This document shows, one piece after another, positions 7,602-58,547 of a stretch of 64,000 nucleotides of DNA. Under the pieces are notes generated by a model. It was not told the origin of the DNA, did no database searches, and saw only the letters and a program-made list of their open reading frames with translations. The stretch covers positions 47,644-111,643 of the forward strand of contig CALVYK010000001.1 of assembly GCA_944372195.1 (NCBI GenBank). Reading direction: 5' to 3'. Position numbers and translations under genes: made by a program. The first letter of the stretch is position 1. Each line of letters begins with the position of its first letter. This stretch comes from an uncultured Bacilli bacterium. GTDB taxonomy: Bacteria > Bacillota_I > Bacilli_A > RF39 > UBA660.

Positions 7602-7725
7602 CTATAAATATTATATCGTAATTAATTGAATTATCAAATGTTATTTATATAATTAATCATTTAAAATTACAAAAATGTCATATTATTTTATTTATATTTA
7701 GTGTATAATTTAGTTGGGTGGAATT

Positions 7726-8391
7726 ATGAAAATATTAATTGTCGAAGATGATGCTACTATAAGAAGTGGTTTAAAATATTGTTTAGAATATGAAAATTTT
7801 GAAGTTGATGAAGCAATAGGTATTGATTGTTTAGATAAATTAGATAATGTTTCTTTAATTTTATTAGATTTAAATTTACCTGATACTAATGGTTTTGATT
7901 TGTTTAAAAAAATAAAAGAAATTAAGAATATTCCAATTATATTTTTAACGGCTAATGATTTGGAACCTTCCATAGTTATGGGATTAGATATGGGAGCCGA
8001 TGATTATGTAACTAAACCGTTTAAAACAAGAGAATTAATATCAAGAATTAAAAATGTTTTAAGAAGAAATAATCATTATGATCTTATAAAAATAAAAAAT
8101 ATTACAATTGATTTAAAACAAGCTAAAGTATTCAAAAATGGAAAAGACGTTAATTTAACAGCTTTAGAATATAAAATATTATTAACTTTGGCTCTTAATC
8201 CTAATCAAGTATTTACTCGGGAAAAGATTTTAGCTGATATTTGGGATGTTAATGAAGAATATGTATATGATAATACTTTAACTGTTTATATTAAAAGAAT
8301 AAGAGAAAAAATAGAAGATGATGTAACTAATCCGAAAATTATTAAAACAGTAAGAGGAATCGGCTATAAAATAGGTGATGAGAGTGAATAA
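7726..8391 (+). CDS. OmpR-family response regulator; start set at MKILIVEDD
   Basis: REC plus winged-helix domains; extended -10 TGTATAAT at 7702-7709 excludes the longer ORF-track start. Confidence 0.88.
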   Translation: MKILIVEDDATIRSGLKYCLEYENFEVDEAIGIDCLDKLDNVSLILLDLNLPDTNGFDLFKKIKEIKNIPIIFLTANDLEPSIVMGLDMGADDYVTKPFKTRELISRIKNVLRRNNHYDLIKIKNITIDLKQAKVFKNGKDVNLTALEYKILLTLALNPNQVFTREKILADIWDVNEEYVYDNTLTVYIKRIREKIEDDVTNPKIIKTVRGIGYKIGDESE

Positions 8392-44449: not shown

Positions 44450-45496
44450 ATGTTTGGATTAGAAATGGATCAATTAGCTAATATAAAAGTAATCGGTGTT
44501 GGTGGTGGTGGTAATAACGCTGTAAACCGTATGATAGAATCAGGAGTGCAAGGTGTTGACTTTATAGTTGCTAATACAGACTTACAAGTTTTAAATAAGT
44601 CAAAAGCGCCTGTTAAAATACAAATTGGTACAGATTTAACTAATGGCTTAGGTGCTGGTGCCAATCCGCAAATAGGAAAAGAAGCTGCTTTAGAAAGTAA
44701 AAATGATATCGAAGAAGCTTTAAAAGGTGCTGATATGGTATTTGTTACTTGCGGTATGGGTGGTGGAACAGGTACTGGAGCAGCACCTGTCATTGCCGAT
44801 ATTGCTCAAAGCTTAGGAGCTTTAACAGTAGGTATTGTTACTAAACCATTTAGCTTTGAAGGTAGAAAAAGAATGCAACAAGCTGTTTCAGGTTTAGAAG
44901 AATTAAAGAAACATGTTGATACTTTAATTGTTATACCAAATGATAGATTAAGAGAAATAATCGATAAAACTACACCTTTATTAGATTCATTTAAAGAAGT
45001 TGATAATGTATTAAGAAGAGGTGTTCAATCAATAAGTGACTTAATCGCTGTAGCAGGGTTAATTAACTTGGACTTTGCTGATGTTAAAGCTGTTATGGAA
45101 AAAAGAGGAAATGCTTTAATTGGTATTGGTATGGGTGTTGGTGAAGATAGAGCTAAAGAAGCCGCTTTACAAGCTGTATCTAGTCCATTATTGGAAACAG
45201 GTATAAGTGGAGCAACTGATGCAATTATAAACGTAACAGGTGGCGCCAATTTAACTTTATTTGAAGTAGAAGAAGCTGCTGAAGTTATAAGACAAAATGC
45301 TAATACCGATATTAATACAATATTTGGAGCGGTTATTAATGAGAATTTAAATGATGAATTGATCGTAACTGTTATTGCAACTGGTTTTGAAGAAGAAAAA
45401 CCAGCCCTTCATTCTTATCAAACTACAACTTATAGTACTGATGACGATTCAGATGATGCTGATGTTCCATCATTCTTAAGAAATAGAGGATTTTAA
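44450..45496 (+). CDS. ftsZ: cell division protein FtsZ
   Basis: Tubulin signature GGGTGTG; N-terminus [15 protein letters not shown]. Confidence 0.95.
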
Positions 45497-45520
45497 AGTT
45501 TAAGAAATTAAACTTTTTTT
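45495..45520 (+). terminator. intrinsic terminator after ftsZ
   Basis: AAGTTTAA gaaa TTAAACTT TTTTT. Confidence 0.75.
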
Positions 45521-45570
45521 GTTCAAAATTTTTAATAGAAAATTAAATAAAATAGGAAATTGCAAAAAAA

Positions 45571-45636
45571 CTGCAATTTTTTTTAAATCTTGCAGGAAAT
45601 CACCATACTTTTTGCTAATAAAACTAATAGGAGGTG
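45571..45636 (+). repeat. 65-bp direct repeat A (copy of the bacteriocin-transporter leader)
   Basis: TGCAATTTTTTTTaaatCTTGCAGGAA...AGGAGGTGA; about 75% identical to 46506-46573. Confidence 0.6.
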
Positions 45637-45681
45637 ATTTAAATAAAAAAATTTTATACCGCAAGACATGAACCTATTTTT

Positions 45682-46470
45682 ATGTATGCTGCAGTTAAAA
45701 AACAATTCTTAATAGCTATTTTAGAGCCAATATTAGATAAAAAAATTGAAGATTTAGAACTGTTAAATCCAAATTTAGTTCAAGATTATTTTAGATTAAG
45801 AGGGCAAAGATTAGATTTGTTAGTAAAAACAAAAGATGAGGTAATTAATGTTGAATTGAATACTAATTATAGTGAAGAAATAAAAATAAGAAATTTACAT
45901 TACATTTTTAAGTTAGCAAGCCTTAATACAGAAAGAGGGAATAAATACAAAGTAGGTTATTCGATAATTCAAGTAAATCTAAATTTTTATAATAGTAAAT
46001 ACGAAAAAAGTATCTACACATTATATGATAAAATAAATAAAATAGAATTAACCGATTATATAAAAATATATAATGTAGGTATAGACAAATACATAAAAAA
46101 CTATTATAATAATGATAAGAAGTTTACTAAAGGTGAAGAAGCATTAATCATGCTAGATTTGGGTAAACAAGGTTTAGAAGAATTATCAGAAAAGAGTGAT
46201 ATAGTGAATAATTTTAAAGAAGAAGTAATAAAAGCTAACAATGATGAGTTTATAGTAGATTGGATAAGTCGTGAAGAGGAGCAAAAGCAATATGAAGAAG
46301 TAATGTATGAAAAAGGACTTAATCAAGGATTATCTGAAGGAAAACAAGAAGGAATTGAACAGACTAAAATTGATGTGGCAAAAGAAATGTTAGAATTAAA
46401 TATGGATTTAGAAACAATAAGTAAAGTAACTAAATTAGCTAAAGAACAAATTGAAAGTTTAAAAAATTAA
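45682..46470 (+). CDS. Rpn/YhgA-like PD-(D/E)XK recombination-promoting nuclease / putative transposase family protein
   Basis: RLDLLVK...INVELN core and the charged C-terminal repeat region typical of Rpn-family proteins. Confidence 0.55.
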   Translation: MYAAVKKQFLIAILEPILDKKIEDLELLNPNLVQDYFRLRGQRLDLLVKTKDEVINVELNTNYSEEIKIRNLHYIFKLASLNTERGNKYKVGYSIIQVNLNFYNSKYEKSIYTLYDKINKIELTDYIKIYNVGIDKYIKNYYNNDKKFTKGEEALIMLDLGKQGLEELSEKSDIVNNFKEEVIKANNDEFIVDWISREEEQKQYEEVMYEKGLNQGLSEGKQEGIEQTKIDVAKEMLELNMDLETISKVTKLAKEQIESLKN

Positions 46471-46505
46471 CAAAAAATTAAAAAAACAAAAAAATTTCAT
46501 TTTAT

Positions 46506-46573
46506 TGCAATTTTTTTTATTTTCTTGCAGGAATTCGATATAGCCTTGGCTAATATAACTAGTAGGGAGGTAA
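46506..46573 (+). repeat. 65-bp direct repeat B (native leader of the bacteriocin ABC transporter)
   Basis: TGCAATTTTTTTTattttCTTGCAGGAA...GGGAGGTA immediately before GTG 46578. Confidence 0.6.
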
Positions 46574-46577
46574 AAAA

Positions 46578-48614
46578 GTGTTTAAAAGAATTAAGCAAGA
46601 AGGTTTTAAAGATTGTGGTCCAAGTAGTTTACTTACTATAATTAAACATTACAAAGGTTATATTGACATAAATGATTTAAAAGAAATGTGTAAAACAGAT
46701 AAATCTGGAACAACTGCCTATCATTTAATTGAAGCTAGTAAAAAACTAGGATTTGAAAGTTATGGTATTAGATGTAATTTAAACGATTTAAAAAAAGAAA
46801 ACGTAATACTTCCTTGTATTGCTCATGTAATTATAAATAACTCCTACAATCATTATGTTGTAATTGAAAAAATAGATTTTAAGAAAAAAAAGCTATTAAT
46901 TAACGATCCAATTGGAAAACGTAAATTTTGCTCGTATGAAGAATTTGATAAAATATTTAATAATATTTTGATTTATTTATACCCTATAAAAAAAATAATA
47001 AATATCCCTAATAATTCATATATAAAATTTTTTCAAGAAATAATAAAATCCTCAACAAATCAATTGGTTCAAGTTATTGTTATATCTATTTTTATTACAA
47101 TATTTTCTATTATCTCATCATTTTATATGCAATACATGATCGATAATATTATGTTTTCTAAGCAAAAAATTATACTTATTTTTATAATCTTTTTAATTGT
47201 TTATTTACTTAAAATCATATCAGATTTTTTTAGAAATAAAATTTTGATTATAATTAATCAAAAAGTTGATTTTAATCTTACTTTTAATACTTTTAAACAA
47301 ATTATTAACCTTCCTTATCGTTACTATAAAAATAATACAACTGGTGAAATAATATCAAAAATAAATGATCTAGAAGCTGTAAGAGAAGTGATTTCTAAAG
47401 TAGCTTTGAGTTTATTTATTGATTTGCCTTTAACAATTTTATCTTTAATAATTATGTATATGTTAAGTGATACTTTATTTTTCATAAGTTTAATTATTAT
47501 GCTTTTATATTTATTTATAATTATTATATTTCAAAATAAATTTAATAATTTAATAGATGAAGCAACACTAGATAAAGCATCTGTTACATCATACATGGTT
47601 GAATCTATTAATGGCTATGAAACAATAAAAGGATGTAATATGGAAGGTAAAATTATTCATAATTTTGAAGATAAATATGCTACTTATTCTAATAAAATAA
47701 ATGAATTAGATAGTTGTTACAATTATCAATATTTGCTAAAAGAATTAATAAATAATATAGGTTTTATAATTATTATATTAGTTGGAATATTTTTAGTAAT
47801 GGATAATAAAATAACACTTGGTTCATTATTGTCATTTAATTCTTTACTTATTTATTTTTTAAGTCCTATTAGAAACATTATTGATTTAGATAATAATTTA
47901 AGACAAGCTAAAATATCTATTAAAAAAATATTATATTTATATTATAAAAAAAATAATTTTCAATTTGAACAAGTTATAGGAGATATAGAATTTAAAAATT
48001 TAACTTATAGTTTTGATGACGTAAATAATGTTTTATCTAATATTAATTTAAAAATTAAAAATAAAAGTAAAGTTATGGTATTAGGAAGTAGTGGTAGTGG
48101 GAAAAGTACTTTATTTAAAATTTTAAAACAAAATTATGAAATTAAAAGAGATAAAGTATATATTAATGGTGTTGATATTAACGATTACAAATTAAATAAT
48201 ATTGTTTATGTATCACAAAATGAAATATTATTTTCTGATACAATTGAAAATAATATTGGTAACGATATTTATAAAGTATCTAAAATATGTTTGGTTGATG
48301 AAATAGTAAAAAAAACACAATTGGGTTATAAAACTTTGATTGAAGAAAATGGTTTTAATTTATCGGGTGGTGAGAAACAAAGAATTATTTTAAGTAGGGC
48401 TTTAGCTAATCCTTTTGATATTTTAATAATAGACGAAGGATTAAGTCAGGTTGATACAAATATGGAAAGAGTAATTATAAAAAATATTTTAAAAGAATAT
48501 CAAGATAAAACAATAATTTTTATATCACATAGATTAGATAATATTGATTTATTTAATCAAGTTATAAAAATAGAGAAAGGAAAAATAATTGATGATTTAT
48601 CCAAAAATATATAA
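46578..48614 (+). CDS. peptidase C39 bacteriocin-processing/secretion ABC transporter (GTG start)
   Basis: C39 motif KDCGPSSLLTI; six TM helices; Walker A GSSGSGKST; signature LSGGEKQR. Confidence 0.88.
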   Translation: MFKRIKQEGFKDCGPSSLLTIIKHYKGYIDINDLKEMCKTDKSGTTAYHLIEASKKLGFESYGIRCNLNDLKKENVILPCIAHVIINNSYNHYVVIEKIDFKKKKLLINDPIGKRKFCSYEEFDKIFNNILIYLYPIKKIINIPNNSYIKFFQEIIKSSTNQLVQVIVISIFITIFSIISSFYMQYMIDNIMFSKQKIILIFIIFLIVYLLKIISDFFRNKILIIINQKVDFNLTFNTFKQIINLPYRYYKNNTTGEIISKINDLEAVREVISKVALSLFIDLPLTILSLIIMYMLSDTLFFISLIIMLLYLFIIIIFQNKFNNLIDEATLDKASVTSYMVESINGYETIKGCNMEGKIIHNFEDKYATYSNKINELDSCYNYQYLLKELINNIGFIIIILVGIFLVMDNKITLGSLLSFNSLLIYFLSPIRNIIDLDNNLRQAKISIKKILYLYYKKNNFQFEQVIGDIEFKNLTYSFDDVNNVLSNINLKIKNKSKVMVLGSSGSGKSTLFKILKQNYEIKRDKVYINGVDINDYKLNNIVYVSQNEILFSDTIENNIGNDIYKVSKICLVDEIVKKTQLGYKTLIEENGFNLSGGEKQRIILSRALANPFDILIIDEGLSQVDTNMERVIIKNILKEYQDKTIIFISHRLDNIDLFNQVIKIEKGKIIDDLSKNI

Positions 48615-49047
48615 TAACTTCTCTTATATTTTAAATAAAAAAACATCACTATCAATCTTTTTATGGATAATATTATTAATTATAAGTTTGATTATATTTA
48701 TAATTATCTCTTTAAAATATGAGTATTATTTATATCAATCATATTTTGGATATGTAAAAAAAATAGATGATTCATTTTATACATTTATTTATGTTCCAAA
48801 AGATAAAGTAAATGAATTATCAAGTAGTAATTTATTAGTGGATAATAGTGATTATAGTTTTGAAATTGTTTCAATAAGTGAAGAATATTTTATTATTGAT
48901 AATAAAACTTGTTACCAAGTAATATTAGATTTTGATTTGAAAGATGAATATCAGATTGAAAATAATATTATTGATATCGTTTTAAAAAATAATAGAACAA
49001 CACTTTATCAAGAATTAAAGAAAGGAATAAAGAAATGGAAAAGTTAG
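48589..49047 (+). CDS. short bacteriocin-secretion accessory protein (HlyD/LcnD-like N-terminal part only)
   Basis: Single TM helix then a beta-rich region; 152 aa, against about 450 aa for canonical accessory proteins. Confidence 0.45.
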   Translation: MMIYPKIYNNFSYILNKKTSLSIFLWIILLIISLIIFIIISLKYEYYLYQSYFGYVKKIDDSFYTFIYVPKDKVNELSSSNLLVDNSDYSFEIVSISEEYFIIDNKTCYQVILDFDLKDEYQIENNIIDIVLKNNRTTLYQELKKGIKKWKS

Positions 49048-49169
49048 AAACTAAAGAATTACAAAAAATATCCGGTGGCGGATTAGGTTTAGGTTTATTA
49101 ATAGGAGCTGGTGTTATATTTTTAATCGGTGTTATTGATGGCTATATAAGGCCACTAAAATGTAACTAG
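49035..49169 (+). CDS. double-glycine-leader bacteriocin peptide 1 (MEKLETKELQKISGG | GLGLGLLIGAGVIFLIGVIDGYIRPLKCN)
   Basis: Canonical LxxxELxxIxGG leader; GxxxG-rich hydrophobic core. Confidence 0.8.
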   Translation: MEKLETKELQKISGGGLGLGLLIGAGVIFLIGVIDGYIRPLKCN

Positions 49170-49179
49170 GAGGTGAAAT

Positions 49180-49341
49180 ATGTTAGAAAAAGAAGAATTG
49201 TTACAAATAGTAGGTGGAATTAGTATTACAGGTAGCTTATTAAGTTCAATTTATAAAGGAATTAATTCGATAATGGATGTGGGAAGAAGTTTAGGAAGCG
49301 CAATTAGAAGAGCAATATCAGGTTCAATGTGTCCAGTATAA
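49180..49341 (+). CDS. double-glycine-leader bacteriocin peptide 2 (MLEKEELLQIVGG | ISITGSLLSSIYKGINSIMDVGRSLGSAIRRAISGSMCPV)
   Basis: RBS AGGAGGTGA; GG leader. Confidence 0.8.
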   Translation: MLEKEELLQIVGGISITGSLLSSIYKGINSIMDVGRSLGSAIRRAISGSMCPV

Positions 49342-49484
49342 TAAGAAATCATTATAAACAAATCATATTAACTGTTATAATAATTTGTTTATTGCCTTTA
49401 TTTCCTATATGTGTCGAAATAATATTTAAGTTTGGTAATTTAATAGGTTCTTCTATTAGATGTTTAACTTCTTGTCCAGTATAA
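49329..49484 (+). pseudogene. degenerate third bacteriocin-like ORF or small hydrophobic immunity-like peptide (possible GTG start)
   Basis: C-terminus ...FKFGNLIGSSIRCLTSCPV is homologous to the peptide 2 C-terminus GRSLGSAIRRAISGSMCPV; no GG leader, no RBS. Confidence 0.3.
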
Positions 49485-56630: not shown

Positions 56631-58547
56631 ATGGAAGCATTATTATTGCCAATTGTTGGTTTATTAATTATATTAACTCTTACATTTTTGTTTTATTCTA
56701 AAAAACATATTCATAATGAAGAAGTAAATATTTATTCGAAACTTTTGATATTAAATATTATATTTATCATTGTAGGTATAATTGCTTTCGCTATAGCAAA
56801 ATTGGCAAATGATATGTTTTTAGTAAAAATATTTCAAAAGATATATATGAGTATATTGATTTTATTGAATTATTTTTCTCTTAAATATTGTTTTATGATA
56901 TTCAGCGTTAAAAAAACAAAAATAATTAATTTAACTCTCAATATTTTAACTGCATTAGCAATTTTATTAGTTTTTGCTTTACCGCTAAATGTAATATACT
57001 ATGATAATGTATTAGATGGTGAAGGATTGTCTTACGATATTGCTATAATTTATTCGGTAATAACATTTTTAAATTTTGTTATTTTAAGTTTATATTTGTT
57101 TTTCAAAAAAAATCGTATAACAAAATTGATTCCATTTTTAATATTAATTTTGTTATATATTATTGGATTTGTTTTAAGAGGATTTTATCGAGAATTGATT
57201 TTTGAAGGATTTTTTTACTCTTATATTTTACTCATTATGTATCATACGATAGAAAATCCTGATGTTAAAATAATTAATCAATTGAATTTGGCAAAAGATC
57301 GAGCTGAAAAAGCTAATCATGCTAAAAGTGATTTCTTATCTAGTATGTCACATGAAATAAGAACTCCTTTAAATGTTATTGTTGGATTAAGTGAAGATTT
57401 ACTCAGTTATAATAATTTGCCAAGTGAATTTTCAGAGGACTTAAATGATATTCAAAATGCTTCATCAGCATTATTAGAGATAGTTGGTAATATTTTAGAT
57501 TTAAATAAAATAGAAGATGGAAAAGTTGATGTGATTGATCAAACTTATGATATTAGGCTAGAAATTAATAAAATTATAAAATTAGTATCAACCAGAATTG
57601 GTGAAAAACCAATTACATTAAATGTAAATATTGATGATAATGTTCCATTTGAGTTAATAGGTGATATTGGTCATGTGAAATCAATTTTGAATAATTTATT
57701 AACTAATGCAATTAAATATACCGAAAAGGGTAATGTAGAATTAAATGTAAGTTGTAAAAATGATAATAATGTTTGTAATTTAACTATGTCTGTTAAGGAT
57801 ACAGGTAAAGGTATTAAGGAAGAGAACCTAAGTAAATTGTTTACTAAATTTAATCGTCTTGACGAAGAAAGGAATACAACTATTGAAGGTACAGGATTAG
57901 GATTAGTAATAACTAAATCTTTAGTTGAATTAATGAATGGTAAAATAGATGTTAAAAGTCAATTTGGTCAAGGATCTATATTTACAGTTTGGTTGCCTCA
58001 AAAAATTAAATCTTTTAAGAAAAGTTCATCAGACCCTGTTAATAATTTAAATAATGATTATAATATTAATTTTGGCCATAAAAAAATTTTGGTTGTTGAT
58101 GACAATAAATTAAATATTAAAGTTGCTAGAAAGGCATTATCGACTTTTAATTTTGATATTGATGAATGTTATGATGGATTAGAATGCTTAGAAAAAGCTA
58201 ATAATAATCAATATGATTTAATTTTTATGGATATAATGATGCCTAACATGAATGGTGAGCAAACTCTTGCCGAGCTAAAGAAAAATCCAAATTTCAATAC
58301 TCCTGTTATTGCTTTGACAGCTGATGCTATTTCTGGTTCAAAAGAAAAATATATTTCACAAGGCTTTGTTGATTATATAGCTAAACCATTTAGTAGAAAT
58401 CAAATAAAAGAAAAGTTAAATGAGATTTTTAAAAATGATCAAAATTTATCAAATCAAGAATCAGCAACATACGTATTTGATTCTAAAAATAATGAAGAAT
58501 ATATAATTACAGATGGTAAAAAAGAGGATATAACAAAAAAAATATAA
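56631..58547 (+). CDS. hybrid sensor histidine kinase / response regulator with a 6-TM N-terminal sensor
   Basis: HisKA H-box SHEIRTPLN; HATPase_c; C-terminal REC (VVDDN...DLIFMDIMMP). Confidence 0.85.
   Translation: MEALLLPIVGLLIILTLTFLFYSKKHIHNEEVNIYSKLLILNIIFIIVGIIAFAIAKLANDMFLVKIFQKIYMSILILLNYFSLKYCFMIFSVKKTKIINLTLNILTALAILLVFALPLNVIYYDNVLDGEGLSYDIAIIYSVITFLNFVILSLYLFFKKNRITKLIPFLILILLYIIGFVLRGFYRELIFEGFFYSYILLIMYHTIENPDVKIINQLNLAKDRAEKANHAKSDFLSSMSHEIRTPLNVIVGLSEDLLSYNNLPSEFSEDLNDIQNASSALLEIVGNILDLNKIEDGKVDVIDQTYDIRLEINKIIKLVSTRIGEKPITLNVNIDDNVPFELIGDIGHVKSILNNLLTNAIKYTEKGNVELNVSCKNDNNVCNLTMSVKDTGKGIKEENLSKLFTKFNRLDEERNTTIEGTGLGLVITKSLVELMNGKIDVKSQFGQGSIFTVWLPQKIKSFKKSSSDPVNNLNNDYNINFGHKKILVVDDNKLNIKVARKALSTFNFDIDECYDGLECLEKANNNQYDLIFMDIMMPNMNGEQTLAELKKNPNFNTPVIALTADAISGSKEKYISQGFVDYIAKPFSRNQIKEKLNEIFKNDQNLSNQESATYVFDSKNNEEYIITDGKKEDITKKI

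What the first reader, a model, noticed from the sequence alone, without database searches (positions are those of the whole stretch)
45559..46577. Rpn/YhgA-like nuclease gene bracketed by 65-bp direct repeats that duplicate the bacteriocin-transporter leader
Repeat A (45571-45636) and repeat B (46506-46573) share the TGCAATTTTTTTT-N4-CTTGCAGGAA core, the following about 40 nt and the RBS. Repeat B is the functional leader of the GTG-start ABC transporter. Repeat A ends in an RBS that is 45 nt from the Rpn-like start, so it is not positioned for that gene.

The Rpn-like gene therefore sits inside a duplicated copy of the transporter promoter and leader. This is consistent with insertion by a recombination-promoting nuclease or small mobile unit.

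The repeated TTGCA elements spaced about 20 bp apart also look like a direct-repeat regulator site, for example for a LytTR-type regulator. None is encoded in the window.
Basis: seen in the sequence. Interest (0 to 1): 0.55.

Follow-up and report, generated by a model that had tools for sequence, protein, structure and literature searches.

The report
Shared competence-type promoter, not insertion scar
The two 65-base repeats are two copies of a promoter-and-ribosome-site module that this group of uncultured gut bacteria also places in front of its DNA-uptake genes, so the nuclease gene and the bacteriocin exporter are probably switched on together with competence and the repeat is not a scar left by an insertion.

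Summary
The repeat is real: 45572-45636 and 46506-46573, about 75% identical, with two 1-nt indels.

- **Not a copy of B.** Repeat A is 92-94% identical to the leaders of Rpn-family genes at other loci and in other genomes. Repeat B is 87-95% identical to leaders of the same C39-ABC exporter elsewhere, including genomes with no rpn gene beside it.
- **The RBS fits the gene.** The conserved rpn reading frame starts at ATA 45643, 8 nt after GGAGG. The ATG 45 nt downstream is not the start.
- **TTGCA elements.** The left one is the 3' arm of a terminator-like hairpin. The right one is not conserved.

The module is hairpin/T-run, GCAGGAWWT, N12, GGCTAAT, ATAWAACTARTAGGAGG. It resembles sigma-H promoters. 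In relatives it precedes comEA-comEC, and a weaker variant precedes dnaG-sigA. It also precedes a restriction-enzyme-like gene and a secreted coiled-coil protein.

Best reading, confidence about 0.6: a lineage-specific competence-type promoter in RF39-like Bacilli that co-regulates rpn paralogues and a bacteriocin operon. An orphan rpn 3' end next to the ftsZ stop shows past rpn cassette recombination at this site.

The parts
44450..45496 (+). ftsZ, the upstream neighbour (context)
   Evidence: The ORF is. FtsZ homologues are 84-98% identical and carry Tubulin and FtsZ_C domains.
45496..45520 (+). Orphan copy of the last 4 codons, the stop codon and the terminator hairpin of an rpn gene (AAGTTTAAGAAATTAAACTTTTTT). 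It abuts the ftsZ stop codon.
   Evidence: The identical 24-mer forms the true 3' end of rpn genes in 9 loci. It also occurs as an orphan upstream of rpn in L003. The hairpin folds at -5.7 kcal/mol. It is absent from the orthologous position in L004 and L015.
45556..45584 (+). Module A, 5' part: A-run/TTGCA ... TGCAA/T8 hairpin. It looks like a terminator and could also act as an UP-like A/T tract.
   Evidence: Fold energy is -7.4 kcal/mol, z = -2.9. The same position in other copies holds hairpins with compensatory stem changes: TTGCT/AGCAA, TTGTAA/TTACAA, ATCAAA/TTTGAT.
45592..45642 (+). Module A promoter and leader: -35-like GCAGGAAAT 45592-45600, 12-nt spacer, -10-like TGCTAAT 45613-45619, conserved AAAACTAATA block, SD GGAGG 45630-45634.
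   Evidence: Sequence. It is 92-94% identical to rpn leaders in other loci. The PWM score is 55.9 bits, with nothing in the window between 12 and 46 bits. No sigma-70-type match is found here.
45643..46470 (+). Rpn-family PD-(D/E)XK nuclease gene, 275 codons, with probable ATA initiation at 45643. The first ATG is at 45682.
   Evidence: PF12784 matches at 6.8e-11. TIGR01784 scores 65.8 bits, above its cut-off. Homologues cover 100% of the frame from 45643. TAA at 45640 closes the GTG-called start.
46303..46470 (+). Candidate internal RpnS-type reading frame (Met221 onward). It contains the four-amino-acid repeats G-x-x-x, whose number varies between homologues.
   Evidence: Indels in multiples of 4 residues appear in the alignment, and Met221 is nearly invariant. 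The repeats begin 8 residues after that Met, as described for RpnS in PMC10400941. This is an inference and was not tested.
46488..46518 (+). Module B, 5' part: a weakened hairpin and T8 between the rpn stop codon and the transporter promoter.
   Evidence: Fold energy is -4.2 kcal/mol in the window against -10.9 and -10.2 kcal/mol in L004 and L015. Those loci have TTGCA where the window has TTTCA.
46527..46577 (+). Module B promoter and leader: -35-like GCAGGAATT 46527-46535, 12-nt spacer, -10-like GGCTAAT 46548-46554, ATATAACTAGTA block, SD GGAGG 46566-46570.
   Evidence: Sequence. It is 87-95% identical to transporter leaders in L004, L015, L017, L020, L022 and L036. It matches the published sigma-H consensus 9/9 in the -35 and 6/7 in the -10.
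46578..48614 (+). Peptidase_C39 - ABC_membrane - ABC_tran bacteriocin/peptide exporter (GTG start).
   Evidence: Pfam matches at 2.3e-30, 1.6e-35 and 3.8e-23.
48589..49047 (+). 152-aa membrane protein overlapping the exporter's end. It is a probable accessory protein with no family match.
   Evidence: It is conserved next to the exporter in L015 and L020.
49035..49484 (+). Two double-glycine-leader peptides (49035-49169 and 49180-49341) and a third small ORF (49329-49484).
   Evidence: The translations show ...KISGG|G and ...QIVGG|I cleavage motifs. TIGR01847 bacteriocin_sig scores 17.7 bits against a cut-off of 15.7 for the first peptide.

Best explanation
Repeats A and B are two independent instances of a lineage-specific promoter/leader module.

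**The module**
- A short terminator-like hairpin ending in a T-run.
- About 9 nt later, a -35-type box GCAGGAWWT.
- A variable 12-nt spacer.
- A -10-type box (GGCTAAT in this genome; GTCGTAT, GCCGAAT or ATCTAAT elsewhere).
- An almost invariant ATAWAACTARTAGGAGG, which carries the transcription start region and the Shine-Dalgarno sequence.
- A start codon 7-8 nt after GGAGG.

**Proposed mechanism (inferred)**
RNA polymerase carrying a sigma-H/ComX-family alternative sigma factor recognises the two boxes. All genes behind the module would then be switched on together with the DNA-uptake genes comEA-comEC. In this genome that set includes one Rpn-family toxin/nuclease gene and the bacteriocin export operon. 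The operon holds the C39-ABC exporter, an accessory protein and two GG-leader peptides. This would parallel the ComX/SigX control of bacteriocins and fratricide in streptococci.

The hairpin/T-run would insulate each unit from read-through. The rpn gene is translated from a non-canonical ATA codon, which should keep production of the full-length toxin low.

**Shown**
- The module, its copy number and its gene associations.
- The gene-specific grouping of A and B.
- The position of the reading frame.

**Inferred**
- That the module is a promoter.
- That a sigma-H-type factor reads it.
- That the genes behind it are co-induced.
For: 1. **Discrete, multi-copy, always in the same place.** A GTDB-wide scan gave 18 true loci in 9 MAGs ('uncultured Bacilli', one 'Tenericutes', Ca. 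Faecisoma). There are 2-5 copies per genome. Each copy is intergenic and points at a start codon 7-8 nt after GGAGG. PWM scores are bimodal: 46-61 bits, then nothing down to 12.
2. **Genes behind the module.** These are rpn paralogues in at least six neighbourhoods (after ftsZ, ksgA, aspS, yutD and others). Others are the C39-ABC exporter, including copies after rnc-yebC with no rpn nearby, and a REase_II-like protein. The rest are a secreted coiled-coil protein and comEA-comEC in L018, L031, L037 and L040.
3. **Unbiased check on comEA.** comEA promoters were retrieved through ComEC protein homology, at 61-100% identity and in four genomic contexts. All carry [GT][CT]AGG[AT]WWT-N12-(GTCGTAT/TGCTAAT/TGTCAAT)-ATAAYTARTAGGAG.
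4. **dnaG-sigA.** In the same relatives this operon is preceded by AAAGGAAAT-N11-GTCGTAT. comE and dnaG-rpoD are sigma-H-dependent operons in Listeria (PMC4754846). SigH promoters in the B. subtilis sigA operon are cited in PMC2824700.
5. **Consensus match.** The published consensus is (A/G)(A/C)AGG(A/G)WWW-N11-12-(A/G)(A/G)(A/C)GAA(A/T). B matches 15 of 16 positions and A 14 of 16. One rpn copy (L035) has the canonical GCCGAAT.
6. **No competing signal.** There is no sigma-70-type promoter match in either module and no Rfam family.
7. **Gene-specific grouping.** A groups with rpn leaders and B with exporter leaders.
Against: - No transcription data exist for this lineage, so promoter function and the transcription start site are inferred.
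- The -10 box departs from GAAT at its most conserved G (TAAT or GTAT).
- The consensus match alone is weak: 8 matches with at most 1 mismatch in the window against 4.0 expected by chance.
- The best-conserved block lies downstream of the proposed -10. A sigma-H model does not explain that.
- No sigma-H gene was seen, because only a 64-kb window and flanks of relatives were available.
- comEA-comEC and dnaG of the window genome itself were not seen. The link to competence rests on relatives with FtsZ 94-95% identical and on more distant genomes.
- No comG, comF, dprA or ssb operon was recovered with the module.
Confidence: 0.6

Rival explanations
1. Housekeeping-sigma promoter with an activator. 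The invariant TAWAAC inside ATAWAACTA would be a sigma-A -10 element. The AGGAWWT box would be the binding site of a transcription activator, such as a ComK-like or other competence regulator, replacing a -35 element.
For: The most conserved block is ATAWAACTA, and TATAAC matches TATAAT at 5 of 6 positions. The proposed sigma-H -10 box is more variable. The co-regulation logic would be unchanged.
Against: The invariant C falls at the position of the critical final T of a sigma-A -10 element. The sigma-70 scan finds nothing there. The AGGAWWT box lies at the sigma-H distance from a [GT][AT]AT element, both in comEA promoters and in dnaG promoters, which lack the ATAACTA block in the same form. 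No inverted or direct repeat typical of a dimeric activator is conserved.
Confidence: 0.2
2. The rpn gene inserted into the transporter's promoter/leader and duplicated it, so repeat A is a non-functional copy of repeat B.
For: A direct repeat brackets a gene from a family once annotated as 'putative transposase'. rpn copies are dispersed and their number varies between genomes. An orphan rpn 3' end next to ftsZ shows recombination at this site.
Against: A is 92-94% identical to rpn leaders at unrelated loci but only 66% to B. Every rpn copy has its own module, whatever gene follows it. The transporter keeps module B in genomes where it lies after rnc-yebC with no rpn nearby. The SD of A is correctly placed for the conserved reading frame. 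There are no terminal inverted repeats or target-site duplications, and no phage, plasmid or viral-contig match.
Confidence: 0.04
3. The module spreads as a mobile promoter cassette. The hairpin-promoter-SD unit, with or without rpn, would be copied between loci by recombination or gene conversion. Its presence before different genes would then reflect that spread more than selection for a shared regulator.
For: Conservation extends beyond what a sigma factor needs: the TTTTGG stretch, the discriminator and the SD are all conserved across unrelated genes. Tandem rpn copies occur in L014. Orphan rpn 3' ends lie upstream of intact copies that themselves lack the 3' arm of that hairpin, both in the window and in L003. 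This looks like a circularly permuted cassette. Rpn proteins are reported to promote recombination (PMC5350276, title and abstract).
Against: Leaders group by downstream gene across species, which points to long vertical co-evolution and not recent spread. comEA carries the module across ComEC identities down to 61%. This model explains the module's origin but not its function, so it is compatible with the best explanation.
Confidence: 0.12
4. The conserved 45 nt is a 5'-UTR RNA element that controls translation. The promoter would lie upstream in the hairpin region, and an anti-SD stretch would sequester the ribosome-binding site.
For: In rpn-type leaders, AAATCACC (45598-45605) is complementary to GGTGATTT (45633-45640). 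In another leader type, ACCTCC is complementary to GGAGGT (sequences).
Against: The complementarity is absent from module B, from the comEA leaders and from L007. Hairpin sequences upstream are too variable to hold a conserved -35. There is no Rfam match. The spacer holding the 'anti-SD' is the least conserved part of the module.
Confidence: 0.04

Closest known systems
Sigma-H-dependent competence promoters of non-streptococcal Bacilli (Listeria monocytogenes comEA, comG, coiA, lytG and LMRG_00908-dnaG-rpoD; S. aureus comE/comG; L. sakei)
   Same: The -35 box RMAGGRWWW and the 11-12 nt spacing match. The -10 box resembles G(G/T)CGAAT. The module sits directly upstream of comEA-comEC, and a variant precedes dnaG-sigA in relatives.
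   Different: The -10 box reads CTAAT or CGTAT instead of CGAAT. An additional, nearly invariant ATAWAACTARTAGGAGG block follows. A hairpin/T-run lies at a fixed distance upstream. The gene set includes multi-copy rpn genes, a bacteriocin exporter and a restriction-enzyme-like gene. The sigma factor has not been identified.
ComX/SigX late-competence regulon of streptococci (cin-box), including ComX-controlled bacteriocins and fratricins
   Same: An alternative sigma factor couples DNA uptake genes with bacteriocin production. For S. mutans see PMC4497675, and for a review see PMC5295010. The C39-ABC exporter and GG-leader peptides have the same architecture as ComAB/BlpAB-type systems.
   Different: The cin-box is a -10-only element (TACGAATA, from my own knowledge). 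Here a -35 AGGAWWT box is present. No ComCDE or ComRS-type signalling genes were seen. The lineage is RF39-like and not Lactobacillales.
Rpn (recombination-promoting nuclease) toxin-antitoxin / antiphage genes (E. coli RpnA-E, RpnP2; PMC5350276, PMC10400941)
   Same: The protein scores above the TIGR01784 cut-off. It has a PD-(D/E)XK N-terminal domain. The C-terminal helical domain has a variable number of four-residue repeats that start 8 residues after an internal Met. Several paralogues occur per genome, and the genes are not autonomously mobile.
   Different: It belongs to Pfam PF12784 (PDDEXK_2) and not PF04754 (YhgA/Transposase_31). It probably starts at ATA. Every paralogue sits behind a competence-type promoter module. 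No such regulation is mentioned in PMC10400941, where 'competence' occurs 0 times.
LytTR-regulated class II bacteriocin promoters (PlnC/D, BlpR, ComE boxes)
   Same: The element lies upstream of a C39-ABC exporter / GG-leader peptide operon. Two TTGCA-like elements lie about 20 bp apart in the window.
   Different: The elements are not conserved direct repeats. One is a hairpin arm, and the spacing is 19 vs 20 nt. No LytTR regulator or histidine kinase lies beside the operon.

Membership tests
Sigma-H-type promoter | -35 box (A/G)(A/C)AGG(A/G)WWW | tested here: met
   A reads GCAGGAAAT at 45592-45600 and B reads GCAGGAATT at 46527-46535. Both match 9 of 9 positions of the consensus quoted in PMC4754846.
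Sigma-H-type promoter | -10 box (A/G)(A/G)(A/C)GAA(A/T), 11-12 nt downstream of the -35 box | tested here: not met
   The spacing of 12 nt is met. The sequence is GGCTAAT in B (6 of 7) and TGCTAAT in A (5 of 7). The conserved G is T in both. A strict search gives 0 hits in the window. Relatives have GTCGTAT, and one rpn copy (L035) has the canonical GCCGAAT.
Sigma-H-type promoter | Found upstream of operons that are sigma-H-dependent in characterised Bacilli (comE, dnaG-sigA) | tested here: met
   comEA-comEC carries the module in L018, L023-26, L031, L037, L040 and L045-48. dnaG carries a variant in L023-25 and L045. All of these are relatives. The same operons of the window genome were not available.
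Sigma-H-type promoter | A sigma-H/ComX-family sigma factor gene in the genome, and transcription that depends on it | not testable with these tools
   No sigma factor was found among the window ORFs scanned.
Rpn family nuclease | Match to the NCBIfam TIGR01784 model above its curated cut-off | tested here: met
   The score is 65.8 bits against a cut-off of 52.1, covering residues 20-272 of 275.
Rpn family nuclease | Membership of Pfam PF04754 (YhgA-like Transposase_31), the family of the E. coli Rpn proteins | tested here: not met
   Only PF12784 (PDDEXK_2) is reported at E <= 0.01. PF27070 (HTH_Rpn_C) is precomputed for many homologues but was not reported for the window protein.
Rpn family nuclease | C-terminal domain with a variable number of four-residue repeats shortly after an internal start (RpnS) | tested here: met
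   Homologues differ by indels in multiples of 4 residues in GLNQ/GKEQ/GLSE/GKQE/GIEQ. Met221 lies 8 residues before the repeats. The criterion comes from PMC10400941. Separate translation of RpnS was not tested.
LytTR-regulated bacteriocin promoter | Two conserved 9-10-bp direct repeats at a fixed phasing of about 21 bp upstream of the -35 region | tested here: not met
   TTGCA to TTGCA spacing is 19 nt in A and 20 nt in B. The left element is a hairpin arm whose sequence changes with its partner. The right element reads ATGCA, AAGCA or ATACA elsewhere.
LytTR-regulated bacteriocin promoter | A LytTR response regulator and a histidine kinase encoded in or near the locus | tested here: not met
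   None lies between ftsZ and rpsU. The response regulators found in the window are OmpR-type (7714-8391) or a hybrid kinase (56631-58547). Not every window ORF was scanned.
Transposable element / insertion with duplicated target | Terminal inverted repeats or target-site duplication, and flanking repeats that are copies of each other | tested here: not met
   A and B are 66% identical, and each is 87-95% identical to leaders of its own gene elsewhere. No inverted repeats bracket the gene. No phage, plasmid or viral match was found.
Class II bacteriocin export locus | ABC exporter with an N-terminal C39 peptidase, plus double-glycine-leader peptides | tested here: met
   PF03412, PF00664 and PF00005 match. 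GG motifs are present in two peptides, and TIGR01847 scores above its cut-off for the first.

The most novel reading that the evidence does not exclude
Uncultured RF39-like gut Bacilli would have a sigma-H-type competence regulon marked by a recognisable 'com-box'. Into that regulon they would have recruited all their Rpn-family nuclease paralogues, together with a bacteriocin operon and a restriction-enzyme-like nuclease. Rpn proteins have a disputed role (antiphage toxin or promoter of RecA-independent recombination). Under this reading they would be made exactly when foreign DNA enters the cell, suggesting a native role in handling transforming DNA, or in self-protection during competence. 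Their ATA start codon would set the toxin-to-antitoxin ratio.
Probability: 0.3. Interest if true: 0.7.

Novelty: new variant of a known kind. Interest (0 to 1): 0.45.

Why it matters
If the module is a competence promoter, it provides a sequence tag for reading out the competence regulon of a large uncultured group of gut bacteria directly from metagenomes. It would also be the first regulatory link, to my knowledge, between Rpn nucleases and natural transformation. The physiological role of Rpn proteins is still unsettled, and this link would make it testable. It would further show the pairing of bacteriocin production with DNA uptake outside the streptococci. For the scan itself, the case is a caution. 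A direct repeat bracketing a 'transposase-like' gene can simply be two members of one regulon sitting side by side.

Tried and rejected
- **Exact-protein look-up of the ATG-started rpn product.** It is not on record.
- **Rfam scan of 45300-46800 at E <= 1.** Only a chance snoRNA hit appeared, so there is no known riboswitch or leader.
- **Sigma-70 promoter and G+C-rich terminator scans.** Nothing was found in either module. The terminator rule needs 3 G-C pairs, so it cannot see these A/T-rich hairpins. Those were folded separately.
- **Viral contigs (pattern), phage and plasmid collections (blastn).** No match.
- **Search for an 'empty' ftsZ-rpsU site.** Relatives have ftsZ-comEA-comEC...dnaG (FtsZ 94-95% identical) or ftsZ-yabG-veg-spoVG (89%). 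The region downstream of ftsZ is a synteny breakpoint, so no clean filled/empty pair exists.
- **Sigma-H consensus match as stand-alone evidence.** Rejected: 8 hits against 4 expected.
- **ComK-box and sigma-54 readings of the TGCAA...TTGCA pair.** These were considered from my own knowledge and dropped. The hairpin sequence is not conserved and there is no GG/GC -24/-12 pattern.
- **Anti-SD pairing in the spacer.** Present in rpn leaders only, so rejected as a general feature.
- **The 249-aa module-driven protein.** It has no Pfam, NCBIfam or PDB match. The only hit is PADLOC REase_II at 9e-13.
- **Sigma factor or LytTR regulator among about 30 window ORFs.** None found.
- **Circular-cassette integration model.** It was raised by the orphan rpn 3' end and by the nested repeats in L003. 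It is noted but left unresolved.
Full report
**1. The observation**

The window carries ftsZ (44450-45496), a 262-275-codon ORF (to 46470), and a GTG-start ABC transporter (46578-48614). These are followed by a 152-aa ORF, small peptides and rpsU.

Copy A is TGCAA-T8-AAAT-CTTGCAGGAA and copy B is TGCAA-T8-ATTTT-CTTGCAGGAA. The spacer therefore differs by one base. A second 1-nt indel lies before GGAGG.

Without gaps, 55 nt align at 75% with 935 nt spacing. A pattern with 20 specified bases, taken from the shared positions, hits only these two sites even with 3 mismatches allowed. Shuffles give 0.07 expected. The repeat is real and is not due to chance.

**2. The gene between the repeats**

The ORF matches PF12784 (PDDEXK_2, 6.8e-11). 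It also passes NCBI's Rpn-family model TIGR01784, at 65.8 bits against a cut-off of 52.1. It does not match PF04754, the Pfam family of the E. coli YhgA/Rpn proteins.

122 homologues were found, mostly from gut metagenomes. Their alignment shows indels in multiples of four residues in a G-x-x-x repeat region. That region begins 8 residues after a nearly invariant internal Met. This is the signature described for the RpnL/RpnS gene-within-a-gene toxin-antitoxin systems (PMC10400941).

The homologues also cover the 13 codons upstream of the first ATG (IKKFYTARHEPIF). Across 14 distinct 5' ends, variable columns fall 8, 4 and 13 at codon positions 1, 2 and 3. This stretch is therefore coding.

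Gene callers start many homologues at a GTG that lies inside the Shine-Dalgarno sequence GGAGGTG. In the window, L004, L015 and L013, a TAA follows that GTG two codons later. In L035, L043 and P0069, the codon equivalent to 45643 is ATG.

The start is therefore most likely the ATA at 45643, 8 nt after GGAGG. That is the same distance as the GTG/ATG of the other genes behind this leader.

**3. The repeat is a widespread module**

Contexts of three homologues showed the same upstream sequence in three unrelated neighbourhoods.

One scan of all GTDB species representatives returned 19 loci, using CAGGAANT-N10-TTNGNTAATANAACTA. One was a chance hit in a cyanobacterial CDS. The other 18 lie in nine MAGs labelled 'uncultured Bacilli', one 'Tenericutes', and Candidatus Faecisoma merdavium, with 2-5 copies per genome. 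Faecisoma is GTDB genus CAG-878, order RF39 (PMC8035907).

Every copy is intergenic and points at a gene whose start lies 7-8 nt after GGAGG. A PWM built from the copies scores 46-61 bits for true sites. Nothing in the window or in loci L001-L022 scores between 12 and 46 bits. The variant comEA leaders of L023-L026 score about 28 bits. The window-type module is thus a discrete unit, while more divergent promoter variants also exist.

The genes behind the module are:
- rpn paralogues, after ftsZ, ksgA, aspS, yutD and others, once in tandem;
- the same C39-ABC exporter;
- a 249-aa protein whose only match is PADLOC REase_II (9e-13);
- comEA-comEC in Ca. Faecisoma.

A metagenome scan with a looser pattern (AGGAWWT-N17-ATAWAACTARTAGGAG) added more comEA, exporter, rpn and REase-like instances. 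It also found a 547-635-aa secreted coiled-coil protein. Viral contigs gave nothing.

**4. A is not a copy of B**

Over 62 nt, A is 92-94% identical to rpn leaders in other loci and genomes. B is 87-95% identical to exporter leaders. That set includes L017, L020 and L022, where the exporter follows rnc and yebC and has no rpn neighbour. A and B are 66% identical.

Each leader has evolved with its own gene. The arrangement of module, rpn, module, exporter is shared by L004, L015 and L036, whose FtsZ is 98% identical. This rules out the idea that inserting rpn duplicated the transporter's leader.

**5. Anatomy**

*Hairpin.* The left 'TGCAA-T8' is the 3' arm and tail of a hairpin whose 5' arm is AAATTGCA. 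Other copies have TTGCT/AGCAA, TTGTAA/TTACAA, ATCAAA/TTTGAT or unrelated stems. All are followed by a T-run 9-12 nt before the next box.

*CTTGCAGG.* Its 'TTGCA' reads ATGCA, AAGCA or ATACA elsewhere. What is conserved is [GA][CAT]AGGAWWT.

*Spacer and -10.* A poorly conserved 12-nt spacer follows. The 7-mer after it is GGCTAAT in B and in most other copies of this lineage. Copy A reads TGCTAAT. Elsewhere the 7-mer is GTCGTAT, GCCGAAT, ATCGTAT or ATCTAAT.

*Downstream block.* ATAWAACTARTAGGAGG is almost invariant.

Two conserved TTGCA direct repeats, as needed for a LytTR site, do not exist. The module has no sigma-70-type match and no Rfam match.

**6. What the module most likely is**

I retrieved comEA promoters independently of any DNA pattern, through FtsZ and ComEC protein homologues.

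In genomes with FtsZ 94-95% identical to the window's, ftsZ is followed directly by hairpin, T-run, GTAGGATTT, N12, GTCGTAT, ATAACTARTAGGAG and then comEA-comEC. Genomes with ComEC down to 61% identity place comEA after pheT, or after an ABC2 transporter. The same architecture still precedes comEA in these genomes.

In four of these genomes, the dnaG-sigA operon is preceded by AAAGGAAAT-N11-GTCGTAT.

In Listeria, the sigma-H-dependent units include comEABC, comG, coiA, lytG and LMRG_00908-dnaG-rpoD. The consensus is (A/G)(A/C)AGG(A/G)WWW-N11-12-(A/G)(A/G)(A/C)GAA(A/T), and the comEA promoter reads AAAGGAATT/GGCGAAT (PMC4754846). SigH promoters in the B. subtilis sigA operon are cited in PMC2824700. 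Sigma-H drives comE and comG in S. aureus (PMC3486894).

Module B matches that consensus at 15 of 16 positions and module A at 14 of 16.

The match alone is weak evidence. The window holds 8 sites with at most 1 mismatch, against 4.0 expected. The case rests on the association with two canonical sigma-H operons across the lineage.

I therefore read the module as a sigma-H/ComX-type competence promoter fused to a fixed start region and SD. The alternative is an activator site plus a sigma-A -10 element (TAWAAC). I give that about 0.2.

**7. Consequence for this locus**

The rpn gene and the bacteriocin operon are two adjacent transcription units with the same kind of promoter. The operon holds the exporter, an accessory protein, two GG-leader peptides and a third small ORF. 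Both units are presumably induced together with DNA uptake.

Coupling of bacteriocins or fratricide to the competence sigma factor is known in streptococci (PMC4497675, PMC5295010). Placing Rpn paralogues and a restriction-enzyme-like gene in such a regulon has not been described, as far as my searches show.

The ATA start would keep synthesis of full-length Rpn low relative to a possible RpnS started at Met221. This is an inference.

The hairpin between rpn and the exporter is weakened in the window. It folds at -4.2 kcal/mol, against about -10 to -11 in L004 and L015. Some read-through is therefore plausible.

**8. What remains of the 'insertion' idea**

Immediately after the ftsZ stop, the window carries AAGTTTAAGAAATTAAACTTTTTT (45496-45519). 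The identical 24-mer is the true 3' end of rpn genes in nine loci: the S-L-R-N codons, the stop codon and the terminator. It also occurs as an orphan upstream of the rpn gene of L003.

In both the window and L003, the intact rpn gene itself ends with the 5' part of this sequence but lacks the 3' arm. L004 and L015 lack the orphan. Relatives with ftsZ-comEA have a hairpin with the same stem at the same place.

rpn cassettes have therefore been gained, lost or rearranged at this site. That fits the view that rpn genes move by recombination (PMC10400941). The events are old and unrelated to the A/B similarity.

No clean filled/empty pair was available. The region downstream of ftsZ is a synteny breakpoint in this group.

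**9. Limits**

- There are no expression data.
- No sigma-H gene has been seen.
- The com and dnaG operons of the window genome itself were not seen.
- The first genome scan fixed many module positions. I offset that ascertainment bias with protein-based retrieval.
- The taxonomic placement near RF39/CAG-822 is inferred from the labels of matching MAGs.

**10. Verdict**

The feature is a new variant of a known kind of system: a sigma-H/ComX-type competence regulon with an unusual box, a fixed leader and an unusual gene set. Interest is moderate at 0.45. It would rise to about 0.7 if co-induction of Rpn nucleases with DNA uptake is confirmed.

Noticed in passing
window 45637-45645; also L004, L015, L013: The rpn reading frame most likely starts at a non-canonical ATA codon 8 nt after GGAGG. 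The GTG that gene callers use lies inside the SD and is followed by TAA in four independent sequences. Three homologues have ATG at the ATA position.
   Followed up: yes
window 45496-45520; L003 9874-9897: An orphan copy of the last four codons, stop and terminator hairpin of an rpn gene sits directly after the ftsZ stop (after yutD in L003). In both loci it lies upstream of an intact rpn gene that lacks the 3' arm of that hairpin. In L003 a further 19-nt exact repeat (TGTAAATATTTTATAATAA) flanks the whole unit. This looks like a circularly permuted cassette, and the mechanism is unresolved.
   Followed up: partly
window 46303-46470 and 46082-46110: The number of four-residue repeats (GLNQ/GLSE/GKQE/GIEQ) differs between orthologues. 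The window protein is 4 residues shorter than those of L004 and L015. An internal Met lies 8 residues before the repeats and could start an RpnS-like antitoxin. A strong sigma-70-like match (TAGACA-17-TATAAT, 11 of 12) lies about 190 nt upstream of it inside the gene.
   Followed up: partly
L023-L026 and L045 (relatives with FtsZ 94-95% identical): In these genomes ftsZ is followed by comEA-comEC, a YhcG-like PD-(D/E)XK nuclease and dnaG-sigA, where the window has rpn, the bacteriocin locus and rpsU. In 89%-identical relatives ftsZ is followed by yabG-veg-spoVG. The ftsZ 3' flank is a rearrangement hotspot.
   Followed up: partly
L023 15800-15860, L024 14923, L025, L045 (upstream of dnaG): The dnaG-sigA operon carries AAAGGAAAT-N11-GTCGTAT, the same boxes as the comEA promoter of the same genomes. 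This parallels the sigma-H promoters of the dnaG-rpoD operon in Listeria and B. subtilis.
   Followed up: partly
L006 3363-4112, L007 3069-3818, L002 19290-20042, L030: A 249-250-aa protein with a type II restriction-enzyme-like match (PADLOC REase_II 9e-13, no Pfam) sits behind the same module. In L002 it lies next to a SMODS (CBASS-type cyclase) gene. No methyltransferase was seen beside it.
   Followed up: partly
L034, L038, L041, L042, L044: A 547-635-aa secreted, C-terminally anchored coiled-coil protein of unknown function is also driven by the module, with -10 variants TATCTAT, ATCTAAT and GTCGTAT.
   Followed up: no
window 49180-49484: The second GG-leader peptide and the following small ORF (GTG 49329) end in similar sequences (...AISGSMCPV and ...CLTSCPV). 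The two ORFs overlap by 13 nt. The third ORF could be a decayed paralogue or an immunity protein.
   Followed up: no
window 46488-46518 vs L004 5715-5745: The hairpin between rpn and the exporter has a G-to-T change in the window (TTTCA for TTGCA). This weakens it from about -10.9 to -4.2 kcal/mol and may allow read-through from rpn into the bacteriocin operon.
   Followed up: partly
L005 4447-5295; L036 and L039: Some rpn paralogues are interrupted by premature stops or split ORFs. This suggests ongoing decay of individual copies, or assembly errors.
   Followed up: no
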